Positions 29,483 through 48,058 of a DNA stretch of 64,000 nt are shown here, in pieces; within the stretch, counting starts at the first letter, position 1; each line of letters begins with the position of its first letter. The stretch spans positions 620,001-684,000 of the forward strand of contig CP142735.1 of assembly GCA_036630325.1 (NCBI GenBank), in the 5' to 3' direction. The stretch comes from Vairimorpha necatrix (taxonomy: Eukaryota). The notes under the pieces were generated by a model. It saw nothing but the letters and a program-made list of their open reading frames with translations. It searched no databases and was not told the origin of the DNA. The translations under genes and the position numbers were made by a program.

Positions 29483-30463
29483 CTAAACCCTACATCCCCC
29501 CTCCAGACGGGTAGTCTCTCCATCTTCTAAACAACTCTTCCTTATCTCTTTCAAATCATAATGCCTCTTTTTAACAATTTTACCATCCAGTAGTCTCACA
29601 ATATATGAATCATTTTCACTTATAGCTACGATCCTTCCGCGACCCGTGAATCTTCCCTTGTCTGTTTTCGCACGTGTACCTAAATTTTCTCTCCTAGCGA
29701 TTCTTACCTCTTGGCCTACTGTAAATGTCTCTCTGTGTCTTCTCTTGAACCGACCAGCATATTTTCCATTTTCATCATTTTCAATTATAACTTCAGCAGT
29801 TTGATCTCTCCACGCTTCCATCGGCGTACATTTTATTGCTGTATGTAGTGTATTATTATATCCTTTGATTGCTCTTTCTATCTTTTCAGAAATATTCCCA
29901 TCATTTTGCTTTATCAATGTCTCTCTTATAGTTCTGATGCATCTCTCGATTCTACCATTACTCCTATGAGCTTCTAAGCCCACTTTCCTATGTTTAATAT
30001 CATTAATACTACACCATTCTTTAAATCTATTACTTACAAACTCTTTTCCGTTGTCTGTCACATATTCCTCTGGAAATCCATCTTCCCTTATCCACTTTTG
30101 TAATACCTCTATAACTTCACTACTCTCTTTACATCTCAAATTCGAACCCCACAACCTTCTAGTAAAGTAATCAATACCCAGTAACACATACCTATTCTCT
30201 CCACCTATGTCCATTAAATCCAACGCCACTTTCTCCAATTTCTTTCTAGTTACTACGAAATCACATCCTCCTGTGTTTTTCCTATTGTTAATCCCACATA
30301 TTTCACAATTCTTAATTACCTTATTAATATGATCTTTCATACCAGGCCAATACCATCTTTGTTTAATGTTATAATAAGTGCCTTTGACACCTCTATGGTT
30401 TAACTCCTCATGTACTCTTGTTATTTCATGTTCTCTACTATCTAGGCTCAATATCTCTTTCAC
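29483..30463 (-). CDS. Integrase portion of pol (HHCC, DDE), stop codon inside the 3' LTR
   Basis: Motifs HEELNH..CEIC, ALDLMD, TDNGKEF and NGRIER. Separated from RT-RH by a frameshift near 30520. Confidence 0.9.
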   Translation of the reverse strand: MKEILSLDSREHEITRVHEELNHRGVKGTYYNIKQRWYWPGMKDHINKVIKNCEICGINNRKNTGGCDFVVTRKKLEKVALDLMDIGGENRYVLLGIDYFTRRLWGSNLRCKESSEVIEVLQKWIREDGFPEEYVTDNGKEFVSNRFKEWCSINDIKHRKVGLEAHRSNGRIERCIRTIRETLIKQNDGNISEKIERAIKGYNNTLHTAIKCTPMEAWRDQTAEVIIENDENGKYAGRFKRRHRETFTVGQEVRIARRENLGTRAKTDKGRFTGRGRIVAISENDSYIVRLLDGKIVKKRHYDLKEIRKSCLEDGETTRLEGGCRV

Positions 30464-30506
30464 CTCACCTGTGGAAAATTCCCAATACTGTTTACCGTCC
30501 TTTTCT

Positions 30507-31853: not shown

Positions 31854-31906
31854 AACCTTTTCACCTTGCTTCCTATTTATTGGACACTTCTCTCCTGTGA
31901 GATATT

Positions 31907-32506
31907 TTATCTTTTCTTTTCTTCTGATTCTTTAAAAACTTCCGGATACTTTTCAATTAAATTTTCTAACTTATTTACTGTTTTACATCTTTTCCCTTCA
32001 TTGTTGATAATTGGTTCTTTCTGTAAAACTTGTTCCTTTTTAATTTTATATTTTTCCCTACCAGCTACACTTTCATGACATTCTCTAGCGTAATGCCCTT
32101 CTTTCTTACATATAAAACATTTTGTAGTTTCTCTGATTTCTCTTCTATTCCTATACATCCTAAGATTTTCTTTTCTTTCTTCCCTAAACTCTTTCAACAC
32201 TTTATCCATAATCTCTTTAATCATTTCTTGTCTTTCTTCTGACTCTCTCTCAAATTCTGCTCCTTTTTGTAAGCCTTTATAAATTTCCTCCCAACTGCTC
32301 CTTCCGTCACAAAAATTTTCAAAAATATAATCCTGCAAGTTCGCAGATGCCAAATCCATAACATCTTTCCACTCAACTTTCTCAACTTTCAATATTAACT
32401 TTAGTCTCTTATCTATCCTAATTGCCTCTTTCTCTAATGTTCTAGCCTCTTGACTACGGGACTCTCTTGTTTCCCTGTTCATCCTTGTGTTCGGCATGTT
32501 AACCAT
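31907..32506 (-). CDS. Gag with CCHC zinc knuckle; ATG inside the 5' LTR; no protease motif before RT
   Basis: CFICKKEGHYAREC is followed directly by the pre-RT linker LIEKYPEVF. Confidence 0.85.
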   Translation of the reverse strand: MVNMPNTRMNRETRESRSQEARTLEKEAIRIDKRLKLILKVEKVEWKDVMDLASANLQDYIFENFCDGRSSWEEIYKGLQKGAEFERESEERQEMIKEIMDKVLKEFREERKENLRMYRNRREIRETTKCFICKKEGHYARECHESVAGREKYKIKKEQVLQKEPIINNEGKRCKTVNKLENLIEKYPEVFKESEEKKR

Positions 32507-33012
32507 TTATTTATTAAGGGTTCTAAACCCTACAGTGTATAAAATATTGTAAAGGGTAAAGTTAAAGTTACGAAGACAAAAATATCTTTTGTTGGCGACT
32601 AGGAGATAAAAAAGGCAATCTTAAGATAATTTTAAAGAAGAATCTAGAGAGATCTTTGTCGAAGAAAATAGGAAGATGCTCTTATAAATTAAAAAATGCA
32701 AAATTATAACTTGAAATGTCCTGAGGTTTTTAGGAAAAGGATAGAATAACACAAGCTTGAATAAATGATCTTGTAACTTATCTAAGAAATTTAGAAAAAA
32801 AACAATTTTTTAAAAGATTTAAATCTAATTGATTAAATTGGTTAGAGCACATCGAAAGCCTAATGGAAACATGTAATTTGTAAGATACTTATAGTATTTA
32901 AATCATATGGTAAAAGTGGAAGAATTTAAAGTGTCGAATACCCTAGATATATTTATAGTAACACAGACGATCGTTTTGTCGTTGTTAAATCTTAAAAATA
33001 GATTTTTTTTTT

Positions 33013-33788
33013 GGTTGCTCTTAGTCCAGTGGTCAAGGGCGATGCTACCATTATGCAATAGCTAGGTTCGAATCCCAGTAGCACTAAAATTGTTTCTATA
33101 TTCTATTGCAGTTGGGACAACTCAGATAGAGAATACATCACGCTAATCTATTGTTATTTTTTTGAAACTTATGTGCGCTCATCAATAAGTTAATTGTCAT
33201 TTAGTTTAAAAATCCATCTTAAGAGTAAAAACAGCATTTCAATCGTAAGGATTTAATGCACATATAATATCTGCTGGTTTAACCCTTTTGTAACCCATGG
33301 CTAGTGAACTTGGGGGTATCACAGACCTAACAAAGAGACTAGACGAAGTTGGACACTAGAATGTCTCGTGAATCATATCTACAAAGTTCTGTAATGCGGT
33401 GACAAACTAGTGAGAGACTGGTGTTCAACGAGCCTAATAAAAATGCCAGGCTGGCGATGTGGCGGTGTAAGAAGCCATGTGTTTAATTTAGATGATTATA
33501 AAGACCTCTGGGTAAATACGACGATATATCTCCTCAAATTCTAGATAAACATGCCCGTTAAGTATATCCGCTGTGAGGTCACTTTGGACGCGATTTGAGG
33601 TAAAAATGGAAAGTGTTCTTCTGACCCAAAGTCCAATGGATACGGCGGAGCTTGCTGCACCGGCAAGTTGTATGGAGGGAGTTTTAGTGAGTAATAATAT
33701 CATAGTACCAGTTGGATGAGGATCACACCCAAATCTCTCTAGTCACTATGTAAGGTTCCTCCTTACCTCTCATGCAAAGAAAATAAAA
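33013..33788 (+). mobile_element. tRNA-headed SINE-like element (copy 2), inserted in a decayed gypsy RT
   Basis: Head has TAGTCCAGTGG and GGTTCGAATCC. The body is collinear with 15118-15909 and the end is A-rich. The TSD is degenerate. Confidence 0.85.
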
Positions 33789-35892
33789 TCAGATTATGTA
33801 ACTATATTTTAGAGCAGGATAAGTATAAAGATTTGGGGGAGTCTATCGGTCATGTAACGATGAAACGGTGCACAATGGTTTTAAAAACTCTCTACAAATA
33901 TTGCAGAGGATTATGGATTTCATTTACGAAGATTTAAAAAGTAATGGAGTAAAAAAAGTGGCATTTACGACCTTGTTATGTACAATATTAATATTAAAGA
34001 ATATAGTCGTTTGCTCGGACTTGTTTTTAAAAGATTAAAGAGAGAAATATGTAACTTAACTTTAATTAAATACAGTTTTGTGAAAGAGCTAACTCAATAA
34101 TTATTAAATTTAATAGAGACGATTTTACGCCATGTAAGATTATGAAGAAGGAATTTTGAGAGACCCGCCGCCGGCTTGTGTTCCTGATGTAATAAACCTT
34201 TTACTATTAACTGATGGTCCAAAGACTCCATAAAGACTACGTAGCGAAGACACTTAACTTGAAATAAATTTAAAAGTTAGAGGTAAAGATTTTACATGGG
34301 CAAAAGAAATAAATTTAGAGTATATAAACGCAAGAAAATACACAGTTAATTATTAAAACTGTAAATATTCTGTAAATTAAGAATTTTTATAAGGACGGAT
34401 GCAATTAACATGTGATGGGTGCGGTTCTACTATAAAAGATTAAAAGGAGAATGGGTTTTGAAGGTGTAGGCAAAAAGGGTTGGCAACTGAAGTTAGCTAT
34501 GGTATTTCTGAAAATAAAATTTACGTAGAATTTTAAAAGTTAAGAAATTTATATGTAAACATGGGGGAAGAAGATTTAGTGTAAAAACAGATCATAAGGC
34601 TTTGCTCAATTGCGAAATAGGCCGATTTTAGACAATTCAGGAGTAAATTGGTAAGTAGAAAGAATCTTGTAGTTCAAATTCGAGAATAAATATAGAAAGT
34701 ATTGGAAAAAATCATGGCTGTTTGATTAAGTTGAATCAATCTACAAAGAAGCGGAAAGGAAAAGACGACGAATAAAGCTGAAAGAAGAAATAAAACACTT
34801 GTGTTAAAAAAGAAGACGGAAAAATATATGGCTATTTGACAAGGAAAGGAGTTGAGAATCCATTTGAAGAAGAAAGAGAAAAGTTGATAGATTATTGCAA
34901 TGTTAATTTGAACCATAGATGAAAAAACGGCCTATAACGAGCATAAGAAAAGATATTATCGATCGGCAATCAAGGACCAAATTAATGAGGTAATTAAAAG
35001 ACGGGAAATCTGCCAAAATACAATGTAGAGAGTGAGTTTAGTAAATATATAACACTAAAAGTATAAAGACAAGATTAGAAAGATCAAATTGAGTTGAGTT
35101 GAAAAAAAAGTGATAGTTGTCGCCGTATATTATTTTACAAGACGATTGTAAAATAAAGGATTTGACAATAAGCAAGCTGTCGGAATTGTTAGATTTCAAA
35201 ATGAATTGTAGATGCTGAGAAAGTAGACAGAAATACGTAAAAGATAACGAACGAGAATGTTGCAATGTTGAATGGTAGAACAATACTTTCATAAAAATTA
35301 ATTACAAATAAGGGCATAAAGTCTAAAGAGCAAAATGTATGGTAGAAAGAGCGTTTTTACAGCGAGATATTTAGAATAGAAAGAAAGTATTCGAGGATAT
35401 GGACTAGGTACCATTGAGAAATATAACTCTAGTTGCCACGTAGTTAAAAATATATCATAATAAGGTCAATGGGTAATAAAAGAGGAATGATGTGATAGAG
35501 AATAGCTTAAAGGGGGGGACTGCTTGCAGATTAGAGTCACGGTATAGATAACGATCCGCAAGGATTAAAAAAAGATATGATGGTGAAGAACGAAAATCAT
35601 AAAGATGTGATAAGTATGGTCTAAAAAGGGTTTTATAATTGGCACTTATAGTAAAAATATTCAAAAGGTTTCAAATATAGTTATAAATAAGGGCGCAATG
35701 GCCCGAGCCCAATATTTCCACATTTTTTTACGTACTAAATCCAGCAAAGGCCGCTAAATGGGAATTGGGGTTTACGACCATATAACAAGAGTCGAAATTT
35801 TACCGATTACTTGAATTTCATTTGGATTATCATTTCCGAGGTTATAAATATTTTTGTTTTTTAGATGATTTCTTCAAAAATATTTTATTCTT

Positions 35893-36096
35893 ATGATATG
35901 CCTGGAGACGCTTGACAGTAGATCAAAAAAATTCCAAGACCCACATGAGGCAAAATGTTTGCTATGTTATATAAATCTCCTAACAAACAATCATAGAATG
36001 TATGAATGTCCTTGTATAATAATATTAACTCTGGACGATTTGTATATAGACTGCCGCAGGGTTAATATACAAAAAAGACGGTATGTGGAACATTAG
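35893..36096 (+). pseudogene. Short ORF with a zf-RVT-like CxxC..H..C motif (non-LTR retrotransposon C-terminal fragment)
   Basis: Sequence LETLDSR..KCLLC..NHRMYECP. Confidence 0.4.
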
Positions 36097-36204
36097 TTGG
36101 ACTTTTTGATAAACTTCATTTTTTTATTTTCCAAATACCTATAAGTACTTATTTGTATATTTGTGATGACCTAATCAATTAAAACAAAGCTCATCACATT
36201 ATTT

Positions 36205-37470
36205 GGGGTGAAGGATACTTTAGACCCCCTTTGAAGCGCTTCAATTTTTTTTTCGAACCCCAAAATTGAAGTGCAAAAAAAAAGAGGAGCAAGAAAGGGA
36301 CAAAAATTTCTTATCACTTTAAACATTAAAAATACAAAATAATTATATATTCAGATACAAAATGTTATTAGAAACCAAGATATATTTATCAAAAACACTT
36401 TTTTATTATATTTATGAAGGGATTATTAGGATAATTTCTTTTAAAAGTAAAAAAATTAAGAAATAGATTTCATCTTTTTCAGTCCGATATCTTGCAGGAA
36501 TCACTCTTTTTACACCAGCCCATGTTCCTTCAATTGTGTTGGTATGAACACCATTCTCGGGATTTATAAAACCAAGGGAATGGTTAACAGTATAGTGTTC
36601 GTATAAGCCTAATTGATTTAAATTTATATACCCTCTCCAACAATCAGTATAAATAATACTTCCGGGATGTACATATTCTTTTATTAATCTTTCGAGAGTC
36701 ACGGCTTTTCTATTTTTAACTTTAATTAAGACTAAGCCTTGTTCTGTAGTCCTTTCCACCATCCCAAGTATCCATACGCCGTCAACTTTGTGGCCTTTGT
36801 TGTATTTTCGCTTTCCGAATTTAGATTCGTCAATCTCCACATTTATACCTGGACCTCCTATTTTTTTATTACCAGTTATATGCTTATTTAAGTTTCTGAA
36901 AATTCTATAAATTGTTTTTCGATTGAAACTATGAATTTTTTTAATAGTTTTTATGGCCGTATTTTCAACAAAAAGAAATATGACCTGGCATATTATCAGC
37001 CAAGGTAATTTAGCTCCATGAAAAGGTTTCTTGTTTGTTATCGTAAATTCTTTTCTGCACCTTTTTGATGTACATCTCACTTGATTTTGTATTCCTATAC
37101 GTCTTTGTACATTCCCATAACAAAGTGGACAAAACCTTGAATTTAAAGTAGATATAATTACTTCCTCAAGTATTTTCTCAACGTCCTTGTATATTTCTGT
37201 CATTTTTAAGGGGAAAAAATGAAAATTATCATAAAATAAAAGAATTTGAATTTAGTTTGAAATTTTAAGTAGACACTTTTTATTTTTAGATATTGGTATA
37301 AAATTTAATTTTAAGTCGTTTTATATAATTATTTTGTATTTTAATGTTTAAAGTGATAAGAAATTTTTGTCCCTTTCTTGCTCCTCTTTTTTTTTTGCAC
37401 TTCAATTTTGGGGTTCGAAAAAAAAATTGAAGCGCTTCAAAGGGGGGGGGGTCTAAAGTACCCCACCTCC
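36205..37470 (-). mobile_element. Merlin/IS1595 transposon with ~145-bp TIRs
   Basis: Long inverted repeats (36205-36350 / 37322-37470) and 8-bp TSD CATTATTT. Confidence 0.92.
36412..37203 (-). CDS. Merlin/ISXO2-like DDE transposase, 263 aa (extreme C-terminus possibly frameshifted)
   Basis: Zinc ribbon CPLC..C..C, VEIDESKFGKRKYNKG, YTDCWRGY and HTNTIEGTW. CCCC lies before the ATG. Confidence 0.9.
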   Translation of the reverse strand: MTEIYKDVEKILEEVIISTLNSRFCPLCYGNVQRRIGIQNQVRCTSKRCRKEFTITNKKPFHGAKLPWLIICQVIFLFVENTAIKTIKKIHSFNRKTIYRIFRNLNKHITGNKKIGGPGINVEIDESKFGKRKYNKGHKVDGVWILGMVERTTEQGLVLIKVKNRKAVTLERLIKEYVHPGSIIYTDCWRGYINLNQLGLYEHYTVNHSLGFINPENGVHTNTIEGTWAGVKRVIPARYRTEKDEIYFLIFLLLKEIILIIPS

Positions 37471-37754
37471 CATTATTTGTTTCCTATTCTGAACAAATAC
37501 TCTGTGGACTGATGGTTTCCCATCAGTCCGAGAAGAATGTTTTAAACTAATGTTTTTATTATTCTTCATCTTCATACCCCAAGGGTATGATTTTCTTTTA
37601 TATTTATAGGCGGGAAAATATTGTACATTTTCCCTCCATAAACATAGTTTGGTAAAGGAGGAGAATACTTATAGAATAGTATTCTCTAGTCTCCAGGGTA
37701 ATCTTAGGACCACTGGAGATCTGTCACTTGACACTCCCCCTTCTTTAGAGGCTC

Positions 37755-38210
37755 CTAGTTTACCATTTGTTGACGCGTCTTCAAGTACTTCCAGTTGATA
37801 ACGAATGCGTCATTATTTAGGCTATATAATTTATAGACTTCCTCTATTCCACCCGTAGGGATAGTAAATGACCTTTTCATTTTGTCATTTATTTTCTTCT
37901 GAATGCTTATCGGTGGTTTTCGCTTTCGTACTACGTCCCGAACTCTATGAACACTTAATTTCACATTGTCTTTAACTTTTCCCTTTTCATTTCTTGGTTT
38001 CTTCCGCGAGTAAGCGATAGATGTATAACGAAGCATTTCTTTTTCGTCGGAGTCTTTCCGCCATCCATTTATCATTTTAATAGATCTAAATTGTCTATTT
38101 ATAAGCTCCGGTAGCATACTGCCCCTGTAAATTTTTTTCCTCCTTTTTTTGTGAGGTATATGTTCTCTGCCTTTCCCCCAGGTATTTAGCTGTAGGTATT
38201 TTAACTCCAA
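37755..38210 (-). CDS. ORF ending in a diverged integrase C-terminal (GPY/F-region) segment
   Basis: VRDVVRKRKPPISIQKKINDKMKRSFTI..INWKYLK aligns with VVLRRKPLIKIKNKLDSKFEGPYTI..VNWKDLK of the inner element. Confidence 0.55.
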   Translation of the reverse strand: MELKYLQLNTWGKGREHIPHKKRRKKIYRGSMLPELINRQFRSIKMINGWRKDSDEKEMLRYTSIAYSRKKPRNEKGKVKDNVKLSVHRVRDVVRKRKPPISIQKKINDKMKRSFTIPTGGIEEVYKLYSLNNDAFVINWKYLKTRQQMVN

Positions 38211-38235
38211 TTCAAAGTTTGTAAATACGGGTGGA

Positions 38236-39042
38236 TCATGTAATTTTTGTATTAAATGATGTGGGTAAAACTCTTTTTTTTTTACTTCTGTTTAGTTTTC
38301 CCTTGTCATTACAAATTACCATGTCACTGAAAGATGCTTTGATTGGAGCGACCGGGAGAGTAAACGTCGATACAGTTTCTTCCTCTCCAGTTTTACTCAA
38401 AAGCACTTTGGGCTTGACTCTTATCGCTTCCCTTTGACCTAATGGTCTCCTATGTTGGATGCACTTAGATTCCGGACAATACTTTAGCTCATCTATAACA
38501 TTGCTACTACTAAAGCTTAAGTTTTGGTCTTTAATATGGAAAGCCTTCGAATGTACTATGGCAAGTTTATTACTTTTTTCTTTTCCTTCTTGAAAGTAAT
38601 TTTCTTTTACAATGTCTGTTAGATGTGTTTCGGATATTTTTCCCGTTGTGCAGACAGATTTCGTTGTTATAGCGCCATCTATTTTATCAAACCTTTTGAG
38701 TAGATTTAGTTTCTTGGCATCTACTATGCCAATTATAAAGTCTTCCGGTAATTTATCTATTACGTGAGCCTCGATCATTTCATTTTTCTTGATCTTGGGC
38801 CTCTTTATAAAGACTTGTATTTTTCCTCCTGATTTGACCTGGCCCCCTATTCCTTCAACCGTAAGAGTTTCTTTTGTTGGCTTTAATTTCAGTTTTTGAA
38901 TCATTGTTTTACTAATGAGATTCACTTGAGATCCGGTATCAATAAGAGCGGAAAATTTTATCGTTCCCGAATATAGATTTATCCTCGGGCGGATATCTTG
39001 TAGTTTAGTAGTTGATTTCATTTCTCCTATCCTTAAAAGCAT
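38236..39042 (-). CDS. Retropepsin protease plus unknown C-terminal region
   Basis: Motifs ALIDTGSQVNLI, GIGG flap and DFIIG. Confidence 0.85.
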   Translation of the reverse strand: MLLRIGEMKSTTKLQDIRPRINLYSGTIKFSALIDTGSQVNLISKTMIQKLKLKPTKETLTVEGIGGQVKSGGKIQVFIKRPKIKKNEMIEAHVIDKLPEDFIIGIVDAKKLNLLKRFDKIDGAITTKSVCTTGKISETHLTDIVKENYFQEGKEKSNKLAIVHSKAFHIKDQNLSFSSSNVIDELKYCPESKCIQHRRPLGQREAIRVKPKVLLSKTGEEETVSTFTLPVAPIKASFSDMVICNDKGKLNRSKKKRVLPTSFNTKIT

Positions 39043-39050
39043 GGCAGAAT

Positions 39051-39641
39051 TTACTTGTTCTGCTTTTTCTCCACAAATTTTATTATCTTTTTTTTTTGTG
39101 AGATAGCTTCATAAGATGGTTTTCTACTAAATGTTTTCTTTTTGTTTAAATGATAATTTATAAGAGTTTGTTTGTTCTCAACTAATTCCAGCAATTCTAA
39201 CCAATCTTTCGTTTCTTCAATAGGCTCCTTCAACTTATCAGGGGAGTTCCTTCCTATAGAAATCTTTGATCTGGCAAAATATTCAGGGTTTCCTTTTGCA
39301 TATCTTTTGAGGTCATAGGCGTAATTTAAAATGTCGCTTTCCTTTGGACCTTCCACATATAGATGCATGAACCTACCTGCTATATCTTCTGTTAGTTTCT
39401 CTTTTAAATACTTTTTTTTAAACTGGGTTTTGAATGAATCATAGTCTGTAATTTCATCACCCTCGAACGCTTTGAACCATGTTAACGCCTTGCCTTTAAG
39501 TTTAGATTTGGCAATATCTAGCGTTTTATCTTGCGTATACACATCCTCAATTTCGCGGAACTGAGTTAAAAAATCTTCGGCTTGTTTTAGATTTTCGCCG
39601 TTAAATTCTGTCCACCTCTTGCTCAGACATATTTTCTTCAT
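39051..39641 (-). CDS. Retrotransposon Gag (N-terminus cut off by the nested insertion; continues at 43654-43780)
   Basis: Clear paralogue of Gag 39805-40713 (FREIEDVY, KLKGKAL). Confidence 0.85.
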   Translation of the reverse strand: MKKICLSKRWTEFNGENLKQAEDFLTQFREIEDVYTQDKTLDIAKSKLKGKALTWFKAFEGDEITDYDSFKTQFKKKYLKEKLTEDIAGRFMHLYVEGPKESDILNYAYDLKRYAKGNPEYFARSKISIGRNSPDKLKEPIEETKDWLELLELVENKQTLINYHLNKKKTFSRKPSYEAISQKKKIIKFVEKKQNK

Positions 39642-39647
39642 GTGGGT

Positions 39648-42600
39648 TGTCAGGGGACAGATCTCCGGTGATACTAAGATTACCCTGAAGATCTGAGAAT
39701 ACCATGCTGTAAGTATTCTCCCTCTTTACATGTATAATTTTTGAAGGGAAATTGGTGATATTTTCCCGCCTAAAATTATAAAAGAAAATCATGCCCAGAA
39801 GGGTATGAAGAATAATAAAAACATTAGTTTAAAACATTCTTCTCGGACTGATGGGAAACCATCATTCCACATTGGTGGTAACGGTGAAGAGGATAAGATG
39901 GATGAGATCGAGGACATCTGCTCTTACATGAAAAAACTATGTCTCCAAAACAGATTGACAGAATTTACCTGCGAAGATCTAAGTAAAGCCGAAGACTTTC
40001 TATCTCAGTTCAGAGAAATTGAAGACGTTTATTCACAAGCCAAGACGCTAGATATTGCCAAAACCAAACTGAAAGGCAAAGCGTTAAGATGGTATAAGGC
40101 TTTCGAGGGTGAAGAGATAACAGACTTCGAGACGTTCAAATCCCAATTCCAAAAAAAATATATAAAGGAGAAACTAGTGGAGGACAACACTGATATGTTT
40201 ATGCACCTATATGTTCAAGGTCCAAAAGAAAGCGATATTATAAGTTACGCTTATGACCTAAAGAGGTATGCTAAGAGAAACACAGAGTACTTTGAAAGAT
40301 CAAAGATTGCCATACTAAGAAACTCTGTGGATGCTTTAAAGGAGCCAGTCAACGATACTCAAGACTGGATAGAGTTATTAGAACTACTAGAAGAAAAAGA
40401 AACTTTTATAAATAATTACATAAAGAAAAGAAAAAACTTATTTAGGAAGCCACAACAGGAAACACCTTTACAGGAAAAAAAAGAATATAGAACTATAAAC
40501 AAGAAATCAGTTCAGATAAATTCGAATTCATCATTACTCCTGAAAATAGGTAAAGTGGAAACAAAAAAAAATTCAACAGATATCCGAGCCAGGATAAATC
40601 TTTTTTCAGATAAAGAAAAAATTGCTGCGCTAATTGACACCGGAGCCGAGATTAACTGCATAAATTTGAATAAAGACCAAGCATTAGGGTTAAAACCAAA
40701 AAAGAGGCGATGACCATAGCAGGAATAGGAGGTAAAGTGAAGTCAGAAGGGATAGTAGAATTTCTAGTAAAAAATCCTAAGACCAAAAAAACAAAAGTCT
40801 TGAAGGCACACGTAGTCGGTAATCTACCAGAAGACCTAATAATTGGCCTAGTAGATATCTTGAACTTAAACTTACATAAAATACTGGATAAAATTAAGAG
40901 TACCAAAATATAAAAATCTATCTGCACTACAACGGCGAAAGCATCCGAAATTCAAATAGCAGATGTTGGAGAAGAAGATATGACAGAGAATGAAAAGGGA
41001 AAATTCATTAAAGTTATTTCAAAACATCCCGATGTATTTTCTGATAATAATCAACAATCGTGCTTAGACATTGAGCATGCGATTGAAATAACAAATGACT
41101 TTTCAGAGGTAAAGAATATTCAATTTAGAAGATCGCCGGAACAAAATGAAATAATCGAAAATAAAGTAAAAGAATTCCTAAGTAAAGGATTCATTGAGGG
41201 TAGTGAGTCAGACTATACTTCTCCGGTAGTGCTTGTAAAAAAACCGAATGGAGATACACGATTTTGTATAGACTATAGGAGACTCAATAAAATTACAAAG
41301 AAGATGATTTACCCAATCCCACTCGTAGAAGAAACCATAGAAGAACTTCAAGGAGCGTCCATATTTACAGTTTTGGACTTGGAATCAGGATACCATCAAA
41401 TACGAATTCGAAAAAAAGATAGGCATCTAACAGCTTTCAGAAGTAGATCAGGAACTTTCCAATGGGTTAGAATGCCATTTGGGCTGGTAAATGCACCTTT
41501 TACATTCCAGAAAATAATGAACTCGATATTATCTCCCTACTTACATAGATTTGTACAAGTTTACCTGGACGATATAATGATATATTCGAAGTCAATGGAA
41601 GAGCACCTAATACACGTAGAAGCGGTTTTTAAAATACTAAACAAACTGAAACTGAGGGTTAACTGCGGAAAATGTAAAATCGGAAAGAATACAGTGAAGT
41701 TCTTGGGATACACGATAAATAAAACTGGTATTAGTATACCGTTAGAACAACAGACTAAATGTCTAAATTTGAGAATTCCCACAACACTTAAAGAAACCAG
41801 AGGATTATTGGATTTATAAATTAACTTAAAAAATTTATAAGGAGCTACACAGATATAATGGCTCCTATTTACGATTGCCTTAAGAAAGGAAAATTTGAAT
41901 TCTCGGAAGAAGCCATACAAAGTGTTAAGAAAATAAAAGAGATTATTACGAGTTCTCCCGTCTTAAAGCTTCCAGACTTCACTAAGAAATTTATCTTGTA
42001 CACTGATGCATCAAACCTTTATATAGGAGCAACGCTAATGCAAGTATACGATGAGACAGAAATGCCTGTATACTTCATTTCAAGAAAACTAAATCCAGCT
42101 GAAATCAATTACACAGTAACCGAAAAAGAATGCCTGGCGATAATATGGAGCATATCTCAATTCCGTATTTATCTTACAAATACTTTTACCATTAAAACTG
42201 ATCATCAAGCACTCAAATGGCTGCTAAGTTATAAAGAAAGTACAGGAAGACTAATGAGATGGATTCTCACATTGGAAAATTACTCCTATGACATCGAATA
42301 CATAAAAGGAAAAGATAACGTTGTAGCTGACGGATTGACAAGATTTGTTCACACAGTAAAATATAAAAATGAACGAGAACTATCGCCCGAGAGTCGTAAA
42401 GAACTTATACTGAAATGCCACGAAGAATGTGGACATGGAAGCACTCTCCCAACATACACTCTAACTCTTGACCAAGCCAAATAGAAAGGCATGTATGAGG
42501 AAATAAAACAAGTGATTGGAAAGTGTCAGGTATATTTAAAATTCAATTCAAAAAGAATACCAAGAGAACACCACAGGATTCGCCTAAAAGATCCATTCTC

Positions 42601-43653
42601 ACTGGTAGGAATTGATATGGTAGGACCTCTACCTAAGTCCGAGAATGGTAAAATATATCTAATAGTCGCCACCGATTACTTGACAAGATGGTGTGAAGCG
42701 AAAGCCGTAAGAAATAAGACTTCTAAAACAGTGGCTAAATTTATATTCGAGGAGATTATATGTAGACATGGCCCACCCAATGAAATTCTTTCAGATAGGG
42801 GACTTGAATTTTTAAACAGTACGGTCAAAGAACTATGTAGAATATTTAAAATAAGAAAATCTTTTACATCAGCCTACCACCCACAATGTAATGGCACGGT
42901 AGAAAGAACCAATCAATCACTAGTGGCCAAATTGGCAACGATAATAAATGGAAGGTGGAAAGACTGGGACGAATACGTCGAACTGGCTCTATACGCGTAC
43001 AGAATTTCTCCCAGAAAAATAACAGGACTCTCTCCCTTTGAGCTATTATATGGACGAAAACCTATGACATGGGAACATCCCGAAGAAGAAACCTTATATT
43101 TGGAAGATAATTTTTTAATATTTGAAAGATTAAAGCATACTCGGGATATTATGTTACAAGCCGAGAGAGAGGCCAGAGAGGTGAAATAAAGGATGTCAAA
43201 GAACAGACACTTCAGATAGGAGACGTGGTGCTAAGAAGAAAACCACTCATCAAGATTAAAAATAAATTGGATAGTAAGTTCGAGGGCCCATACACGATAA
43301 CTAAGGTGGGTAAGAAAGGGGCATATGAAATAATAAGCCCTAATAATGAAGTGTTCTCGGTAAATTGGAAAGACTTAAAGAAGATGGACTTTGAACTAGA
43401 AACCTGGGAGCCGATAAAGAAAGGGGGAGTGTCAGGGGACAGATCTCCGGTGATACTAAGATTACCCTGGAGATCTGAGAATACCATGCTGTAAGTATTC
43501 TCCCTCTTTACATGTATAATTTTTGGAGGGAAATTGGTGATATTTTCCCGCCTAAAATTATAAAAGAAAATCATGCCCAGAAGGGTATGAAGAATAATAA
43601 AAACATTAGTTTAAAACATTCTTCTCGGACTGATGGGAAACCATCAGTCCACA
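39648..43653 (+). mobile_element. Full-length Ty3/gypsy element, 224-bp LTRs (39648-39871, 43430-43653), gag-PR-RT-RH-IN with several lesions
   Basis: TSD TGGGT, PBS TGGTGGTAACGGTGA (tRNA-Leu-like) and PPT AAGAAAGGGGGAG. Motifs LIDTGA, YLDD, TDAS, IDMVGP..SDRG and GPY. Confidence 0.95.
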
Positions 43654-44686
43654 TGGGTGATAAGACTATTTAGGTGATCGTTCAAATCCTCGTCACCTTT
43701 ACCACCATTGTGGACTGATGGTTTCCCATCAGTCCGAGAAGAATGTTTTAAACTAATGTTTTTATTATTCTTCATCTCCATACCCCCAAGGGTATGATTT
43801 TCTTTTATATTTATAGGCGGGAAAATATTGTACATTTTCCCTCCATAAACATAGTTTGGTAAAGGAGGAGAATACTTATAGAATAGTATTCTCTAGTCTC
43901 CAGGGTAATCTTAGGACCACTGGAGATCTGTCACTTGACATACTCCATGTTCATGTAATGAGGCACTATACTCCGTTTCAAGAATGGTCTTTCTAAACTT
44001 TTGTTGTTATTTGTTTGTTTACAAACAAACTGTAAAAATATTAGTATCGAAAAAGCATAAAAGGGCATGATGAGATGGAAGGTGAATACAAACGCTAAAA
44101 CAATAAAAGCATTATTTTTGAAAATACCTTTATTCTCATCGGGATGTCACTTCTCCTAGGATACGTCAATATTCTGTATTCGTTTTCTGAAGTACAGCCT
44201 ACACTATACTTAACTAAAAATTCCCGATTTCAGTTTATTTTGTCTTCGGGGCCAAAAAAAAATTTATGAAGCATTGAAAAGGAAAACCCTAAACGTCTAA
44301 ATAGGGTGTTTGGAGAAGTGATACAGACAGACGAAATGGTAATGGTAAAAAGATAATTTTTCAAATTCCATCAGAAAGTCATGACACAGTTGCTTTACAT
44401 GATTGATAGATTCAATATAAGGGCGAACATTAGAATTGAGAATCAAAATATTACCTACCCGGAAACTACTTACTATGACTTGATTTTTTAAGAAATACAT
44501 AAAATCGAAACGATTGTGTAAATGATGGGCATAAATAATGTCTTACAACATCAAATTTATCAACGGCGAACACGGCATGTAATATATGACGCCCTTTTAA
44601 AACAAAGCAGGAGAGACTACAAGTTTAATAGAAGGAGTCTGGTCATATCTTAAATGTGATTTAATAATTAGAAAGATATTAAAGAT

Positions 44687-47600
44687 TGTTAGACATATCC
44701 AAGTTAAGGGGTAGTTAATAATAAAAATATAAAGTAAACAATGACATGAGAATGTCACAACATCCCTCCCTCTATAAGAAATAATCGTCTTCGTCGATTT
44801 TTTTCAGCTGCGTAGCGTGCCTTTTACTTATTTCCCCATTACTATTGATTTCATATGTATCGTTAGTCAAAATGCCTATAACTTCTCCTGTTCCTACAAA
44901 CTTTGGCTGTCCTTTGTATTTGTGTATCTGGTCTTGTATAATGACCAAATCTCCAAGTTCTAACTTTTTATATTCAGGTTTCTTGAATAAACTCTTGTAT
45001 CTATTTATTCGGTTTTCAAAATGTTTCCTTTTAACTTCTGGGATATTTTCTAGATCTAATGCTTCTATTGGGGCCATCCCCGTTGCTCTATGACTTATAC
45101 AATTATACGCCTCAATCATCTTATCGACTCTTTTCGACAGTCTGATGCTCTTATCCTGCTTATTTATTCCTTCGCCCACAGTTCTATTAAATCTCTCTAT
45201 TCTACCATTTGAACAATGATGGTAGGGCGAGGTATTATGTTATCTTATTTTATTCTCTAATGACCAATTTCGTATCTTTTCACTTATATTTTCTTTTGCG
45301 CCGTCTGATATCAGTGTCTGTATATTCACCTTTTTGTGTACAATTTCCAAAAACATCAATATGTTATCACTACTTTTCGTCTTGAATACTTTTGCAAATG
45401 CGAATCTTGAGAAATAGTCTATAGCCGTGAATATAAATCTATCTTCTATCGGTCCTATGATGTCAAAAGCGACTTTTTCTCCGGGTTCAAATGCTTCCAC
45501 ATGCCTGAATCCTTTAATTCTCGCCGGATTATACTCTTTGCATTTATAACATCTTTTTAAAACATCTTCTACCTTCTTTAGTGTTATACTTTGATTACAT
45601 TGTTCTTTATTTATTTGTTCATGAGTAGCTTTTGCGCCTCTATGAACTAATTTTTCGTGTACCTTCATGATATATCAACAATTTCCTTTTTTCAATAACA
45701 TTTATTGTCCCGTAATGCCTCGAGAGAGCATCAACGTGCTCCAAATCGGTAGGTGTTTTGTATCGTATTATAAAATCGTACATCTGTAATCGTTCTATCC
45801 ATCTTATTATCCTGGGAGAATTTATCTCTCCCTTACAGTTTAAGGCTTCCAGTGCCTTATGATCCGTGTAAATTGTAATTTCCTTCCGAGGAGGAAATAT
45901 TTAAAAGGTTCCATTGCCCAAAGTGTGGCTAACATTTCCTTTTCTGTAATCGTATAATTTCCTTCAGCCTGCCATAATTGCCTTGAGGCGAAGGCAATAG
46001 GCCTTTCTTGCCCGTCTATTTCCTGGCTAAGTACGGCACCTAATCCCGTGTTCGATGCGTCTGTTGTTAAAACAAAGTCTCGTGTAAAGTCAGGTTGATA
46101 CAAGCATAAATCCGATATTAATGCATCTTTCAAAGTTTGAAATGCCGTTTCTTGCTCTTTTTCCCAAATGAACGGTTGTTTCTTTTTTAATAATATCACT
46201 AGTGGGTAGCATATCTTTGCGCAATCCTTTATAAATTTTCTGTAATAATTAACAATGCCTAAAAATTTTCGTACCTCATCTACATTCCTCGGGGTTGTAT
46301 ATTTTTTTATACCTTCAGTATTATCTGCCAATGGAGTTATCTTATTATATGTTATATTGTGACCTAAAAAATTTATCTCTTTTTTCATTATTTCCATTTT
46401 TTCCCTGTTTGATGAGAATCCTGCGTTGTTAAGTAGTTTACATACTCTTCCCACAGCCTTTTTATGCTTTTCAATTGTTTCAGTATATATTAGAATATCA
46501 TCCACATAGGCGAAACAACATCTCCCAATTTCTTGCTTAAGAACTTTATCAACTATTCTTTGAAATATTGCTGGGGAGATATTAAACCCCATAGGCATCC
46601 TAGTGTATTCATATGTCCTGTTTTTTATCCTGAAAGCGGGTTTCATCATGTCGTCCTCTTTTAGCTTTACCTGAAAGAATGCCTCCTTCAAATCTATCTT
46701 AGTAAAATACTTGCTTTTTCCCAGGCGGTAAATAAGCTCTTCTATCCTTGGTAGAGTATAACTATCTAGTGCCACTATTTTGTTCAGTTTGATTAAATTT
46801 ATTGTAAGCCTTATACTTCCATCTTTTTTTTCGACGGGTCTAACGTTATTTAACCACGTAGAGTGAGATTCTCTAATATAGTTGTTGGATAATAATCTCT
46901 GTATTTCTTTTTCAATTTTTTTTCCCATGCTTGGGGTATTCAATATGACTTATCTACAACCTTTTAACCATCCTCAGTATCTATATTACATTCAAATCCC
47001 TTTATTCCTTCGTTCTTCCACGCACATAATTTATTTATTTCTTCATTAAAATCGGTTACTACACTGATAGGATTTACGGTCTTTGGTGTTCTCATCCATT
47101 TACGTCCTATTATCACCGTCTTATCATTCCGCTTTGGTAAAATATAAAACTTCTCTTTTTAGCGTTCTTTGCTATGCTCAAATTCTATTTCCACATATTT
47201 ATCTATCGTAAACTCTTCTAATAGGCAGGTGTATAAAGTTATCGGCGTTTTCAATAAAGATGCTCTAATCTGCAAGAGTGCTTGTATCGGGTTTGTTATA
47301 AAACTATATTCCGATCCTGTGTCAAAAATAGCCCTAAACTGAAGACCCTTGATATAAACTAAATTTTCTTTAATAATTTCATCGACCGTTTCGACGTTAT
47401 TCAGCTGTCTTTTTTGGTCTGTTCTCGTTGCGCTGCTTGGTTTTGTATTTAGTCTTCTGAAATAAGCTTCTCTCTTAATTACCTCTATTTTCCTTATAGT
47501 ATCTAGGAATTCTTCATCAATTTTTTTAAACTTAAGTGTTGCTTGTTCACACTCCTCTCTCAACTTCCTCAATCCGAGGTAACTAATCTCTAATATAAGC

Positions 47601-48058
47601 TCATCATCATCAATAATAGCCTCTCCCAATTTTCTCATCCTTATAAAAAATTCATGACAGGTTTCTTCCTTTTTCTGGAATTCTCTCAAGAATTCTCTTT
47701 TAGATATTTTTTTGTTAAAAATGGAAAACATATATTCCTTCCATGCTTCGTAAGAAATCTTATTTAGTTTTTTATCCCTTTCTAAACGTTCATGGGCTTC
47801 GATTATAGCCACATCTGCTTTGTCCAAAATTTCCTCAATTTTTTCTTCATCCGTTAAGTATTTAAAAGCTTTCTTTCTTTCTTTCTAGTTTTTTTAAGGT
47901 GGCTTCAGATCTTTACCAGTTATTTGTATGGTGAGATCATTCAGTAACTTCACTATGTCTTGTTTTGAAATATTCTCCACCATGTTAGACATATCCAAGT
48001 TAAGGGGTATTTAATAATAAAAATATAAAGTAAACAATGAAATGAGAATGTCACAACA
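44687..48058 (-). mobile_element. Ty3/gypsy element with 76-bp LTRs (44687-44762, 47983-48058), frameshifted
   Basis: TSD AAGAT, PBS TGGTGGAGAAT (tRNA-Ala-like) and PPT GGGGAGGGA. Gag-PR (FDTGS) 47159-47827, RT-RH (YVDD) 45840-46943, IN 44772-45668. The LTRs differ at 2 sites. Confidence 0.95.

What the first reader, a model, noticed from the sequence alone, without database searches (positions are those of the whole stretch)
32497..48058. Gag reading frames open inside the 5' LTR in three unrelated gypsy families
Seen: the 38-bp LTR reads AACCCTTAATAAATAA-ATG GTT AAC ATG. The 76-bp LTR reads ACCCCTTAACTTGGAT-ATG TCT AAC ATG GTG, continuing through the PBS. The 224-bp LTR reads GCCCAGAAGGGT-ATG AAG AAT (39805), open through the LTR end and PBS into Gag. 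The outer 232-bp LTR has the same frame (MKNNKN..GGKGDEDLNDHLNSLITH joining MKKICL). Known: Gag normally starts downstream of the PBS, and microsporidian genes have a CCC/GGG motif just before the ATG and very short 5' UTRs. Inference: these elements have moved translation initiation into R/U5, so U5 and the PBS are protein-coding. This would be a lineage-wide adaptation to near-leaderless mRNA. Alternative in-frame ATGs exist downstream, so the start sites are not proven.
Basis: partly seen in the sequence, partly recalled or inferred. Interest (0 to 1): 0.75.

Follow-up and report, generated by a model that had tools for sequence, protein, structure and literature searches.

The report
Retrotransposon Gag genes starting inside LTRs
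In several gypsy-type retrotransposons of the insect parasite Vairimorpha necatrix the capsid (Gag) reading frame appears to begin inside the terminal repeat and to run through the tRNA primer site, a compact layout known from yeast Ty1 but apparently not described for microsporidia.

Summary
The window is Vairimorpha necatrix. All four elements are real Ty3/gypsy insertions with TG..CA LTRs of 38, 76, 224 and 232 bp, 5-bp target duplications and polypurine tracts. An ATG inside the 5' LTR is in frame with and open into Gag in A, C and D. In B it is in frame, but two stops follow at codons 33 and 36.

Chance alone gives this in 6-8% of shuffles per element. Comparison is more telling:
- A Nosema granulosis relative of A starts at the ATG made from the LTR's last A plus the TG of the primer site.
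- 14 of 25 distant Gag families from four named microsporidian genera carry an LTR-end/PBS footprint in their first 40 residues. Eight of these have no Met between it and the Gag core.
- One fetched contig shows the whole layout in DNA.
- The LTR ATGs sit behind host-like CCC (and, in C/D, TATA) motifs.

No transcription start or protein N-terminus was measured. Yeast Ty1 and Candida Tca5 are precedents. Verdict: real, probably functional, and a new variant of a known arrangement.

The parts
32497..32534 (-). Element A 5' LTR (38 bp, TG..CA). It holds GGG and CCC in an inverted repeat, two overlapping AATAAA, and an ATG at 32506-32504.
   Evidence: identical to 29457-29494; flanked by TSD TACAC (32535-32539 and 29452-29456); CCC at -14 from the ATG
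32495..32497 (-). Element A junction ATG: the last A of the LTR plus the TG of the PBS-like sequence TGCCGAACACAAGG (32496 downward)
   Evidence: aligns with residue 1 of the Nosema granulosis polyprotein P0005
31907..32506 (-). Element A Gag ORF (199 aa, CCHC zinc knuckle) starting at the LTR ATG; in-frame ATGs at codons 1, 4 and 9; TAA directly upstream of codon 1
29457..29494 (-). Element A 3' LTR, preceded by polypurine tract GGAGGGGGGA
47983..48058 (-). Element B 5' LTR (76 bp) with CCCC, then an ATG at 47992-47990; junction ATG at 47983-47981; PBS TGGTGGAGAATA from 47982
   Evidence: TSD ATCTT; CCC at -15/-14
47159..47992 (-). Element B Gag-protease frame from the LTR ATG. It is interrupted in this copy by TAA (47896-47894) and TAG (47887-47885). 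The next in-frame ATG is at codon 88 (47731).
   Evidence: 2 stops in 87 codons in this frame against 9 and 9 in the other two frames; RVP_2 hit
44687..44762 (-). Element B 3' LTR
39648..39871 (+). Element C 5' LTR (224 bp): TATAAAA at -28 and CCC at -11 from the ATG at 39805; AATAAA inside codons 4-5; the last 67 nt (ATG to LTR end) are translated in the Gag frame
39872..39892 (+). Element C spacer T plus PBS TGGTGGTAACGG..., read in frame as Ile-Gly-Gly-Asn-Gly
39805..40713 (+). Element C Gag-protease ORF (302 aa) from the LTR ATG; further in-frame ATGs at codons 32 and 42 (MKKLCL)
   Evidence: (Retrotrans_gag, Ty3_capsid)
43430..43653 (+). Element C 3' LTR; TSD TGGGT at 39643-39647 and 43654-43658
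43709..43940 (-). Element D 5' LTR (232 bp): TATA at -34/-28, CCC at -11, ATGs at 43781 and 43775 (a 6-nt in-frame duplication relative to C)
43659..43708 (-). Element D spacer A, PBS TGGTGGTAAAGG and the first part of the stretch before Gag, cut off from Gag by the insertion of C
39051..39647 (-). Element D: remainder of that stretch and Gag (MKKICL..., ATG at 39641), in frame with the LTR ATG once C is removed
37503..37733 (-). Element D 3' LTR (231 bp); TSD GAGTA at 43941-43945 and 37498-37502

Best explanation
These are Ty3/gypsy LTR retrotransposons of Vairimorpha necatrix whose Gag (Gag-Pol) reading frame begins upstream of the primer binding site. It begins inside the 5' LTR (families C/D and probably A and B), or at the latest at the ATG formed by the LTR's terminal A and the first TG of the PBS (A, B).

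Proposed mechanism. The 3' half of the LTR carries a host-type microsporidian core promoter: a CCC motif 6-15 nt upstream of the ATG, plus a TATA box at -28 in C/D. Transcription starts a few nucleotides upstream of the LTR ATG, as in microsporidian host genes. The genomic RNA therefore has almost no leader, and the first AUG is used. R/U5 and the PBS are then translated as a 4-45-residue N-terminal extension of Gag, while still serving as strong-stop template and tRNA primer site. In C, D and L001 these same nucleotides also carry an AATAAA signal.

Shown: the anatomy, the frames, the motif positions, and conservation of the in-phase junction/PBS footprint among distant relatives. Inferred: the TSS position, use of the LTR AUG, and that the arrangement is an adaptation to short leaders.
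For: (1) Anatomy and frames. LTR boundaries are fixed by TSDs, TG..CA ends and polypurine tracts. The LTR ATG is in frame and open into Gag in A, C and D.

(2) Family A. The only database relative is P0005, a Nosema granulosis partial polyprotein with 49% identity over Gag. It begins at the residue aligned with A's codon 4, which is the junction ATG. A's codon-9 Met is Asn there, and conservation starts at once (NTR..RE..ESRSQEAR).

(3) The C/D clade.
- phmmer against 1.84 billion representatives gave 25 hits.
- The named ones come from Dictyocoela muelleri, Anncaliia algerae, Hepatospora eriocheir and V. necatrix.
- 14 of the 25 families carry an [N/I/S]-G-[G/D/V..] motif within their first 40 residues, one of them (P0011) seen only through its cluster member P0033. 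In C, D and L001 this motif is the translation of LTR-end 'CA' + spacer + PBS 'TGG'.
- The strict form [NI]G[GDV] occurs in 9 of 15 complete N-termini, against 2.3% of random 40-residue windows from the rest of the same proteins.
- In 8 of the 14, no Met lies between the motif and the Gag core.
- The column of the C/D 'MKK' Met holds L/V/I/A/T in every other family that has a residue there.

(4) DNA proof in a distant relative. L001 (36% Gag identity) reads integrase 3' end, polypurine tract, 352-bp LTR, spacer A, PBS TGGCGACGG, Gag. Its ATG lies 82 nt inside the LTR and is in frame, with CCCC at -7, TAAATA at -28 and AATAAA in codons 8-10.

(5) Host-like signals.
- CCC lies within 15 nt upstream of all four LTR ATGs, against 6.0% of all 2,195 ATGs counted in the window (those with 40 nt or more upstream). 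TATA at -25..-32 occurs at 2.05% of them, and both together at 0.41%.
- Of the 10 other ORF starts printed, the 6 that carry a CCC within 15 nt have it at -12 to -6: three ABC genes, a transposase, the integrase ORF and the ORF at 5947.
- N. ceranae has CCC enriched at -10..-3 and TATA near -27 (PMC2685015, passages).
- E. cuniculi 5' UTRs are under 7 nt, with CCC upstream of the TSS (PMC2803860, passages).
- 77% of V. necatrix genes have CCC/GGG within 30 bp (PMC10759460, passages).

(6) In every case the first ATG after the CCC is the one in the Gag frame.

(7) D differs from C at the ATG by a 6-nt in-frame duplication. The diverged 36-nt stretch between PBS and MKK has the same length and no stop in both.

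(8) In B the Gag frame upstream of codon 88 has 2 stops, against 9 and 9 in the other frames.
Against: - No TSS, ribosome or protein data were available. Everything on initiation is inference.
- Shuffles give the observed pattern by chance in 5.6-8.2% of trials per element.
- Between C and D, the 12 codons between the PBS and MKK differ at 20 of 36 nt, with 0 synonymous and 10 non-synonymous codon changes. Gag codons 42-141 show a third-position excess (17/12/39) with 26 synonymous and 28 non-synonymous changes. Amino-acid constraint therefore begins sharply at MKK, as expected of a start codon.
- The 22 LTR-encoded codons differ at 1 nt between C and D. Their conservation can be explained at the nucleotide level (R/U5 function or recombination) and says nothing about coding.
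- In C, D and L001 an AATAAA lies 10-25 nt downstream of the LTR ATG. If that signal had to lie in U3, the TSS would be downstream of the ATG.
- B's frame is closed by two stops, and no relative of B was found.
- Element F shows no LTR ATG.
- 11 of the 25 homologues lack the motif. Seven of them start within 12 residues of the core or inside it, one hit is internal to a longer protein, and three have long N-termini without it.
- Database N-termini are ORF-caller choices, not measured starts.
- CCC at -14/-15 in A and B lies outside the -10..-3 peak reported for N. ceranae.
- A's PBS-like sequence starts TGC, not TGG. No tRNA set was available to confirm any of the PBSs (one search found one tRNA in the window).
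Confidence: 0.65

Rival explanations
1. Gag starts downstream of the PBS, at MKK (codon 42) or codon 32 in C/D and at codon 9 in A. The LTR ATGs are incidental, either because the TSS lies downstream of them or because they are bypassed. The open upstream frame reflects chance in short, stop-poor sequence.
For: The shuffle probability is 5.6-8.2% per element. C versus D shows a sharp onset of purifying selection exactly at MKK, with 0 synonymous and 10 non-synonymous changes in the 12 codons before it. The AATAAA downstream of the LTR ATG in C/D would be simplest to accommodate in U3. Three to four homologues (P0009, P0020, P0028, and P0021 in part) start close to the core.
Against: The MKK Met is L/V/I/A/T in all other families with a residue at that column. 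Eight families have no Met between the PBS footprint and the core. A's codon-9 Met is Asn in the N. granulosis relative, whose protein starts at the junction ATG. The footprint is in one phase in 14 families and strongly enriched at N-termini. An out-of-frame ATG in U5 of C and D (in CTGATGGG, 21 nt before the LTR end) would precede any post-PBS start on the mRNA (sequences).
Confidence: 0.2
2. In families A and B, initiation is at the junction ATG (the LTR's last A plus the TG of the PBS), not at the ATG three codons upstream inside the LTR. The PBS is coding, but U5 is essentially untranslated.
For: The N. granulosis protein starts at the residue aligned to A's junction ATG. The junction ATGs have A at -3, and in B also G at +4. 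The upstream ATG in A has T at -3. An LTR end 'CA' abutting a PBS 'TG' creates this ATG automatically, and it is in the Gag frame in both A and B.
Against: Both A and B keep the upstream ATG at the same distance (9 nt) and behind the same CCCTTAA-N7 spacing. CCC would be 23-24 nt from the junction ATG, which is far for a microsporidian start. The DNA upstream of the N. granulosis start could not be seen.
Confidence: 0.35
3. The N-terminal similarity among homologues (MKNNK.., NIG/NGG) reflects only conserved nucleotide signals (AATAAA, LTR end, PBS). These happen to be swept into predicted ORFs by longest-ORF gene callers, and the region is never translated.
For: The KNNK codons contain AATAAA in C, D and L001. 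The NIG/NGG motif is the LTR end plus the PBS. C and D are nearly identical at the nucleotide level in this part.
Against: Nucleotide signals do not require a fixed phase relative to Gag, nor absence of stops over 40-60 codons in 14 separate families. Nor do they explain the lack of any alternative Met in 8 of them. The stretch after the PBS keeps an acidic, amphipathic pattern across families in the alignment (by eye, not scored).
Confidence: 0.1

Closest known systems
Ty1 (and, from recall, Ty2) of Saccharomyces cerevisiae, Ty1/copia superfamily
   Same: GAG opens upstream of the PBS, so the PBS lies inside the GAG ORF and the same RNA bases serve for priming and coding. [quoted passage not shown]
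   Different: Ty1 is copia-type (IN before RT). It has a 334-bp LTR and a leader of about 50 nt (figures recalled, not from a call). The elements here are Ty3/gypsy (RT-RH-IN order), with LTRs down to 38 bp and a presumed near-absent leader behind a microsporidian CCC promoter.
Tca5 of Candida albicans (Ty5-like)
   Same: Its first two in-phase candidate ATGs of the single ORF lie within the left LTR, and the true start is unresolved (PMC4139406, passage read).
   Different: It is a copia-type yeast element. The review calls the position unusual. No comparative evidence of the kind found here is given in the passage read.
Microsporidian Ty3/gypsy families (Nosema bombycis Nbr elements; Anncaliia algerae and Edhazardia aedis families)
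   Same: Same host phylum and superfamily, and microsporidia-specific clades. A single Gag-Pol polyprotein is described for them (PMC4202319, passages). The homologues found here come from these genomes.
   Different: The passages read say nothing on the PBS, the LTR length or the place of the start codon. A full-text search for microsporidia + retrotransposon + 'primer binding site' returned 1 paper, unrelated. Xu et al. 2006 on Nbr elements is not in the library and was not seen.
Ty3 of S. cerevisiae, the type Ty3/gypsy element
   Same: Same superfamily; tRNA-primed; Gag with a capsid domain (Ty3_capsid Pfam hit for C and D).
   Different: The Ty3 PBS segment adjoins the 5' UTR, and GAG3 starts downstream of it (PMC4974528). 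Here the ORF covers the PBS.

Membership tests
Ty3/gypsy LTR retrotransposon | Direct LTRs with TG..CA ends flanked by a short target-site duplication | tested here: met
   A, B, C and D all have this, with 5-bp TSDs
Ty3/gypsy LTR retrotransposon | Polypurine tract before the 3' LTR and a tRNA PBS (TGG...) after the 5' LTR | tested here: met
   PPTs are present in all four. The PBS is TGGTGG... in B, C and D, with 0-1 nt spacer. A has TGCCGAAC (non-canonical first triplet). tRNA identity is not testable.
Ty3/gypsy LTR retrotransposon | Pol domain order PR-RT-RNaseH-IN | tested here: met
   RVT_1, RT_RNaseH and rve occur in that order in A, B and C. An aspartyl protease is found in B, C and D. 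None is detected in A or in its N. granulosis relative.
LTR elements with Gag initiation in the 5' LTR (Ty1-like layout) | In-frame ATG inside the LTR, downstream of the promoter signals | tested here: met
   Seen in A, B, C, D and L001. CCC lies 6-15 nt upstream, with TATA at -28 in C/D.
LTR elements with Gag initiation in the 5' LTR (Ty1-like layout) | Frame open from that ATG through U5 and the PBS into Gag | tested here: met
   Met in A, C, D and L001. Not met in the B copy, which has two stops. F is uninformative.
LTR elements with Gag initiation in the 5' LTR (Ty1-like layout) | Arrangement conserved among related copies and families | tested here: met
   Seen in C versus D, in L001, in 14 of 25 homologue families, and in N. 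granulosis for A
LTR elements with Gag initiation in the 5' LTR (Ty1-like layout) | Mapped TSS upstream of the ATG and a Gag N-terminus at that AUG | not testable with these tools
   No transcript-end or proteomic data were available
Ty1/copia superfamily | IN located upstream of RT | tested here: not met
   IN follows RT-RNaseH in A, B and C. The resemblance to Ty1 is in layout only.
Microsporidian host-gene start architecture | CCC (or GGG) motif within about 15 nt upstream of the ATG | tested here: met
   A -14, B -15/-14, C and D -11, L001 -7/-6. The background is 6.0% of ATGs.
Microsporidian host-gene start architecture | TATA[AT]A[AT] beginning near -27 | tested here: inconclusive
   C and D have it at -28. 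L001 has only TAAATA at -28. A and B have none; A's LTR is too short to reach -28.
Microsporidian host-gene start architecture | 5' UTR of a few nucleotides | not testable with these tools
   Known for E. cuniculi (under 7 nt; PMC2803860). Not measured for V. necatrix or for these elements.

The most novel reading that the evidence does not exclude
Microsporidian Ty3/gypsy elements have collapsed their whole 5' region. Transcription starts within a few nucleotides of an AUG inside the LTR, and R, U5, the PBS and (in the C/D clade) the poly(A) signal are all read as Gag codons. This overlap would be what allowed LTRs to shrink to 38 bp, which would be among the shortest functional LTRs known, with the start codon of some families assembled from the LTR's last base and the first two bases of the PBS. 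The layout would be ancestral to a phylum-wide clade (Vairimorpha, Nosema, Anncaliia, Dictyocoela, Hepatospora).
Probability: 0.35. Interest if true: 0.7.

Novelty: new variant of a known kind. Interest (0 to 1): 0.5.

Why it matters
If confirmed, this shows how retroelements adapt to hosts that have almost abolished 5' leaders. The cis signals for reverse transcription (R, U5, PBS) and for 3'-end formation would have to share nucleotides with the Gag coding sequence. That constrains both and may explain the extreme miniaturisation of the LTRs, down to 38 bp.

It has practical uses:
- Annotating microsporidian transposons. LTR finders that expect a non-coding PBS, or LTRs of at least 100 bp, will miss or mis-start these elements.
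- Gene calling in repeat-rich microsporidian genomes.
- Using LTR promoters as compact expression signals in organisms that still lack genetic tools.

It also gives a second, independent lineage besides yeast Ty1 in which a PBS is translated.

Tried and rejected
- Word-index protein searches were largely unproductive. C Gag at near length gave none of 1,285 candidates. B Gag read through with X at its two stops, at 'longer' lengths, gave none of 4,199 candidates. A Gag at 'longer' gave 1 of 768. B therefore has no comparator.
- BLASTP of B Gag against A Gag found no significant similarity (best E = 1.3).
- Exact look-up of 8 transposon ORFs of the window found none in the protein collection. 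Only the 2 ABC transporters were found, which named the organism.
- blastn-short with the four LTRs found no further or solo copies in the window. Within-family LTR variation could therefore be studied only for C versus D.
- A profile built from the Gag alignment and run over the six-frame translation of the window found only C and D. The Gag frame of the decayed element F could not be set, and F stays uninformative.
- Rfam found nothing in the window. ARAGORN found one tRNA-Met, whose 3' end does not match the PBSs beyond TGGTGGT (by eye).
- I first misread the plus strand and thought D's LTR frame was shifted relative to Gag. The script join by coordinates showed it is in frame.
- bioRxiv supplements and the RNA-seq data of the V. 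necatrix genome project could not be examined.

Full report
**Origin and setting.** The window comes from Vairimorpha necatrix. Two ABC-transporter ORFs match proteins of a 1,069,813-bp contig of that species exactly. The window is AT-rich, with 23-38% GC per 2-kb bin. It is packed with mobile elements between copies of an ABC-transporter gene.

**Checking the observation.**
- Element A (minus strand) has two identical 38-bp LTRs (32497-32534 and 29457-29494) with TG..CA ends. A polypurine tract precedes the 3' copy, and a 5-bp target duplication (TACAC) flanks the element.
- Element B (minus strand) has 76-bp LTRs (47983-48058 and 44687-44762) with 2 mismatches and TSD ATCTT.
- Element C (plus strand) has 224-bp LTRs (39648-39871 and 43430-43653) with 3 mismatches and TSD TGGGT.
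- Element D (minus strand) has LTRs of 232 and 231 bp (43709-43940 and 37503-37733) and TSD GAGTA.
- C sits inside D in the opposite orientation, between D's PBS and its Gag.
- Pfam finds RT, RNase H and integrase in that order in A, B and C, Gag domains in C and D, a zinc knuckle in A, and aspartyl proteases in B, C and D. RT identities among the three families are 32-37%. They are distinct but not unrelated.

**The frames.**
- In A the ATG at LTR position 29 (32506) opens the 199-aa Gag ORF. A TAA lies directly upstream of it. In-frame ATGs follow at codon 4 and codon 9.
- The codon-4 ATG of A is made of the LTR's last A plus the first TG of the PBS-like sequence.
- In C the ATG at 39805 lies 67 nt before the LTR end and opens a 302-aa ORF that runs through U5, a 1-nt spacer and the PBS (TGGTGGTAACGG).
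- In D, leaving out C and one TSD copy by coordinates puts the LTR ATG (43781) in frame with, and open into, the Gag that begins MKKICL.
- In B the LTR ATG (47992) and the junction ATG (47983) are in the Gag frame. This copy, however, has TAA at codon 33 and TAG at codon 36, and the next in-frame ATG is only at codon 88.
- That frame of B has 2 stops in 87 codons, against 9 and 9 in the other frames. It therefore looks like decayed coding sequence.
- A fifth element (F, 10616-14275, LTRs about 108 bp and 82% identical) is too decayed to read and shows no LTR ATG in a recognisable Gag frame.

**Is it more than chance?** Within the window the case is only modest. Dinucleotide shuffles of LTR plus leader produce an in-frame, open ATG wholly inside the LTR in 8.2% (A), 7.1% (C) and 5.6% (D) of 20,000 trials. 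The stronger evidence is comparative.

**Family A.** Its one database relative is a partial polyprotein of Nosema granulosis, with 49% identity over Gag. It begins at the residue aligned with A's codon 4, the junction ATG. A's codon-9 Met is Asn there, and sequence conservation starts immediately. The only Met shared by the two is therefore the one built across the LTR/PBS boundary, which makes the PBS coding. Whether the ATG three codons upstream is also used cannot be told.

**The C/D clade.**
- A full HMMER scan of 1.84 billion representatives with C's Gag gave 25 hits.
- Those with names come from Dictyocoela muelleri, Anncaliia algerae, Hepatospora eriocheir and V. necatrix. One comes from a MAG labelled Clostridium.
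- In C and D, the LTR end 'CA', a one-base spacer and the PBS 'TGG' are read as xxC-A?T-GGx, that is [any]-[N/I]-Gly.
- The same short motif sits within the first 40 residues of 14 of the 25 families. One of these (P0011) is seen only through a fuller member of its cluster, P0033.
- The strict form [NI]G[GDV] is present in 9 of 15 complete N-termini, but in only 2.3% of random 40-residue windows from the rest of the same proteins.
- In 8 of the 14 families no Met lies between this motif and the conserved Gag core.
- The column holding the 'MKK' Met of C and D has L, V, I, A or T in every other family that has a residue there.
- Of the 11 families without the motif, 7 begin within 12 residues of the core or inside it, 1 hit is internal to a longer protein, and 3 have long N-termini without it.

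**DNA confirmation.** It reads integrase 3' end, polypurine tract, a 352-bp LTR (1138-1489), spacer A, PBS TGGCGACGG, Gag. The ATG at 1408 lies 82 nt inside the LTR and is in frame with Gag. It is preceded by CCCC at -7 and TAAATA at -28, and followed by AATAAA in codons 8-10. The amino-acid motif is thus the LTR/PBS junction in a third, distant element (36% Gag identity). This locus was found through a predicted protein that already included the extension, so it is not an unbiased sample.

**Promoter context.**
- CCC lies within 15 nt upstream of all four LTR ATGs: -14 in A, -15/-14 in B, and -11 in C and D. C and D also have TATAAAA at -28.
- Among the 2,195 ATGs counted in the window (those with 40 nt or more upstream), 6.0% have such a CCC, 2.05% such a TATA and 0.41% both.
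- Of the 10 other ORF starts printed for comparison, 6 carry a CCC within 15 nt, at -12 to -6. These are three ABC-transporter genes, one transposase, the integrase ORF and the ORF at 5947.
- Published work agrees (passages read). N. ceranae has CCC enriched at -10..-3 and TATA near -27 relative to start codons (PMC2685015).
- E. cuniculi has 5' UTRs under 7 nt, with the CCC-like signal upstream of the TSS (PMC2803860).
- V. necatrix has CCC/GGG within 30 bp of 77% of genes and of 54% of predicted transposons (PMC10759460).
- In each LTR the first ATG after the CCC is the one in the Gag frame.
- A and B share the layout CCCTTAA-N7-ATG-N3-AACA|TG at their LTR ends.

**Evidence that cuts the other way.**
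- Between C and D, the 22 LTR-encoded codons differ at a single nucleotide. The U3 part of the LTR is only about 84% identical. This conservation is at the nucleotide level (R/U5 function or recombination) and says nothing about coding.
- The 12 codons between the PBS and MKK differ at 20 of 36 nt, with no synonymous and 10 non-synonymous codon changes.
- Gag codons 42-141 show the usual third-position excess (17/12/39 by codon position; 26 synonymous and 28 non-synonymous changes).
- Amino-acid constraint therefore begins sharply at MKK, as it would at a true start codon. What is kept upstream is only the length, the phase and the absence of stops.
- The AATAAA just after the LTR ATG in C, D and L001 would lie in R, very close to the cap, if the TSS precedes the ATG.
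- A's PBS-like sequence begins TGC rather than TGG. None of the PBSs could be matched to a tRNA set.
- Database N-termini are gene-caller choices, not measured starts.

**Most likely mechanism (inference).** The LTR's 3' part acts as a host-type core promoter, and transcription begins a few nucleotides before the LTR ATG. The near-leaderless RNA is translated from its first AUG. R/U5 and the PBS then encode a loosely constrained N-terminal extension of Gag while keeping their roles in reverse transcription.
- I put 0.65 on initiation at or upstream of the PBS.
- I put 0.2 on the rival in which Gag starts downstream of the PBS.
- For A and B the choice between the LTR ATG and the junction ATG is open.

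**Relation to what is known.** The layout is not unprecedented.
- In Ty1 the PBS lies in the GAG ORF (PMC4974528).
- In Candida Tca5 the first in-phase ATGs lie in the LTR (PMC4139406).
- Both of those are copia-type yeast elements. The elements here are Ty3/gypsy, and the type element Ty3 has its PBS next to the 5' UTR.
- In the library searched, papers on microsporidian transposons describe single-polyprotein gypsy clades but not the PBS or the start-codon position (PMC4202319).
- A full-text search for microsporidia + retrotransposon + 'primer binding site' gave one unrelated paper. The 2006 paper on Nosema bombycis Nbr elements is not in the library and was not seen.
- I therefore class this as a new variant of a known arrangement, of moderate interest. 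A bolder reading remains open: LTR miniaturisation made possible by complete overlap of cis signals and coding.

**What stayed unchecked.** Transcript ends, proteomics and the genome-wide frequency of the pattern were also out of reach.

Noticed in passing
window 29457-32534 (element A): A complete-looking gypsy insertion of only 3,078 bp with 38-bp LTRs, confirmed by TSD, PPT and TG..CA ends. From recall, LTRs this short are not described. No protease domain was detected in A or in its N. granulosis relative, whose precomputed Pfam domains are RT and RNase H only. A's three ORFs lie in different frames.
   Followed up: partly
window 32477-32496: A's PBS-like sequence starts TGC, not TGG. The N. 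granulosis protein has Ala where A has Pro at that codon, which would fit a canonical TGG there. That is an inference from the protein, as its DNA was not seen. A's copy may carry a PBS mutation.
   Followed up: partly
window 37503-43940: This is a nested insertion. C (39648-43653) sits in antisense orientation inside D, between D's PBS and its Gag. D keeps Gag and protease but lacks RT, RNase H and integrase, and its LTRs differ at only 2 positions. It looks like a recently moved non-autonomous deletion derivative.
   Followed up: partly
window 39805-39871 versus 43709-43775: The last 67 nt of the C and D LTRs are 98.5% identical, while the upstream LTR part is about 84% identical and Gag is about 77% identical. 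The break lies at the ATG. This could mark the start of R, with R-U5 exchanged between families during strand transfer, which would place the TSS next to the ATG.
   Followed up: no
window 39814-39819; L001 1432-1437: An AATAAA poly(A)-type signal lies inside the Gag codons (Asn-Lys) just after the LTR ATG in C, D and L001. In A two overlapping AATAAA end on the A of the ATG. In B an ATTAAA precedes the CCCC.
   Followed up: partly
window 15118-15190 and 33016-33088: There is one tRNA-Met (CAT) gene and a decayed tRNA-like copy inside a duplicated segment (15120-15908 versus 33016-33788, 77% identical). Element A's 5' LTR lies about 480 bp from the tRNA-like copy.
   Followed up: no
window 36213-37463; also 19978-20487 and 51854-52273: An IS1595/ISXO2-like (Merlin-type) DNA transposon has about 140-bp terminal inverted repeats (94% identical) and a 263-aa transposase ORF with CCCC at -10. 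It was inserted next to D's 3' LTR. Two further transposase fragments lie elsewhere in the window.
   Followed up: partly
window 986-2416, 6882-8749, 26115-27977, 53455-55305: Four ABC-transporter paralogues lie in segmental duplications (66-85% identical). Two are split by frame breaks. Three of the four carry CCC at -7/-6 before the ATG.
   Followed up: partly
window 56107-57396; fragments at 18068-18768, 48938-49712, 60494-61059: An intact 429-aa ORF carries integrase zinc-binding and core domains and CCC at -7, but has no RT nearby. Related decayed copies lie elsewhere in the window. Its nature (solo integrase gene or another element type) was not resolved.
   Followed up: no
L001 (NZ_JBOFRG010000211.1, 2,034 nt): A contig filed in a MAG labelled Clostridium sp. 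encodes a eukaryotic gypsy integrase, LTR and Gag related to microsporidian elements. It is almost certainly a binning contaminant. It reads 3' end of pol, LTR, PBS, Gag, which means either tandem elements or an assembly collapse across the LTR.
   Followed up: partly
window 10616-14275 (element F): This is an old gypsy element with LTRs of about 108 bp (82% identical) and many stops. Its PBS TGGCGAGAACG can be read in the same phase (xxT GGC) as in the C/D clade, but a stop lies just upstream of it.
   Followed up: partly
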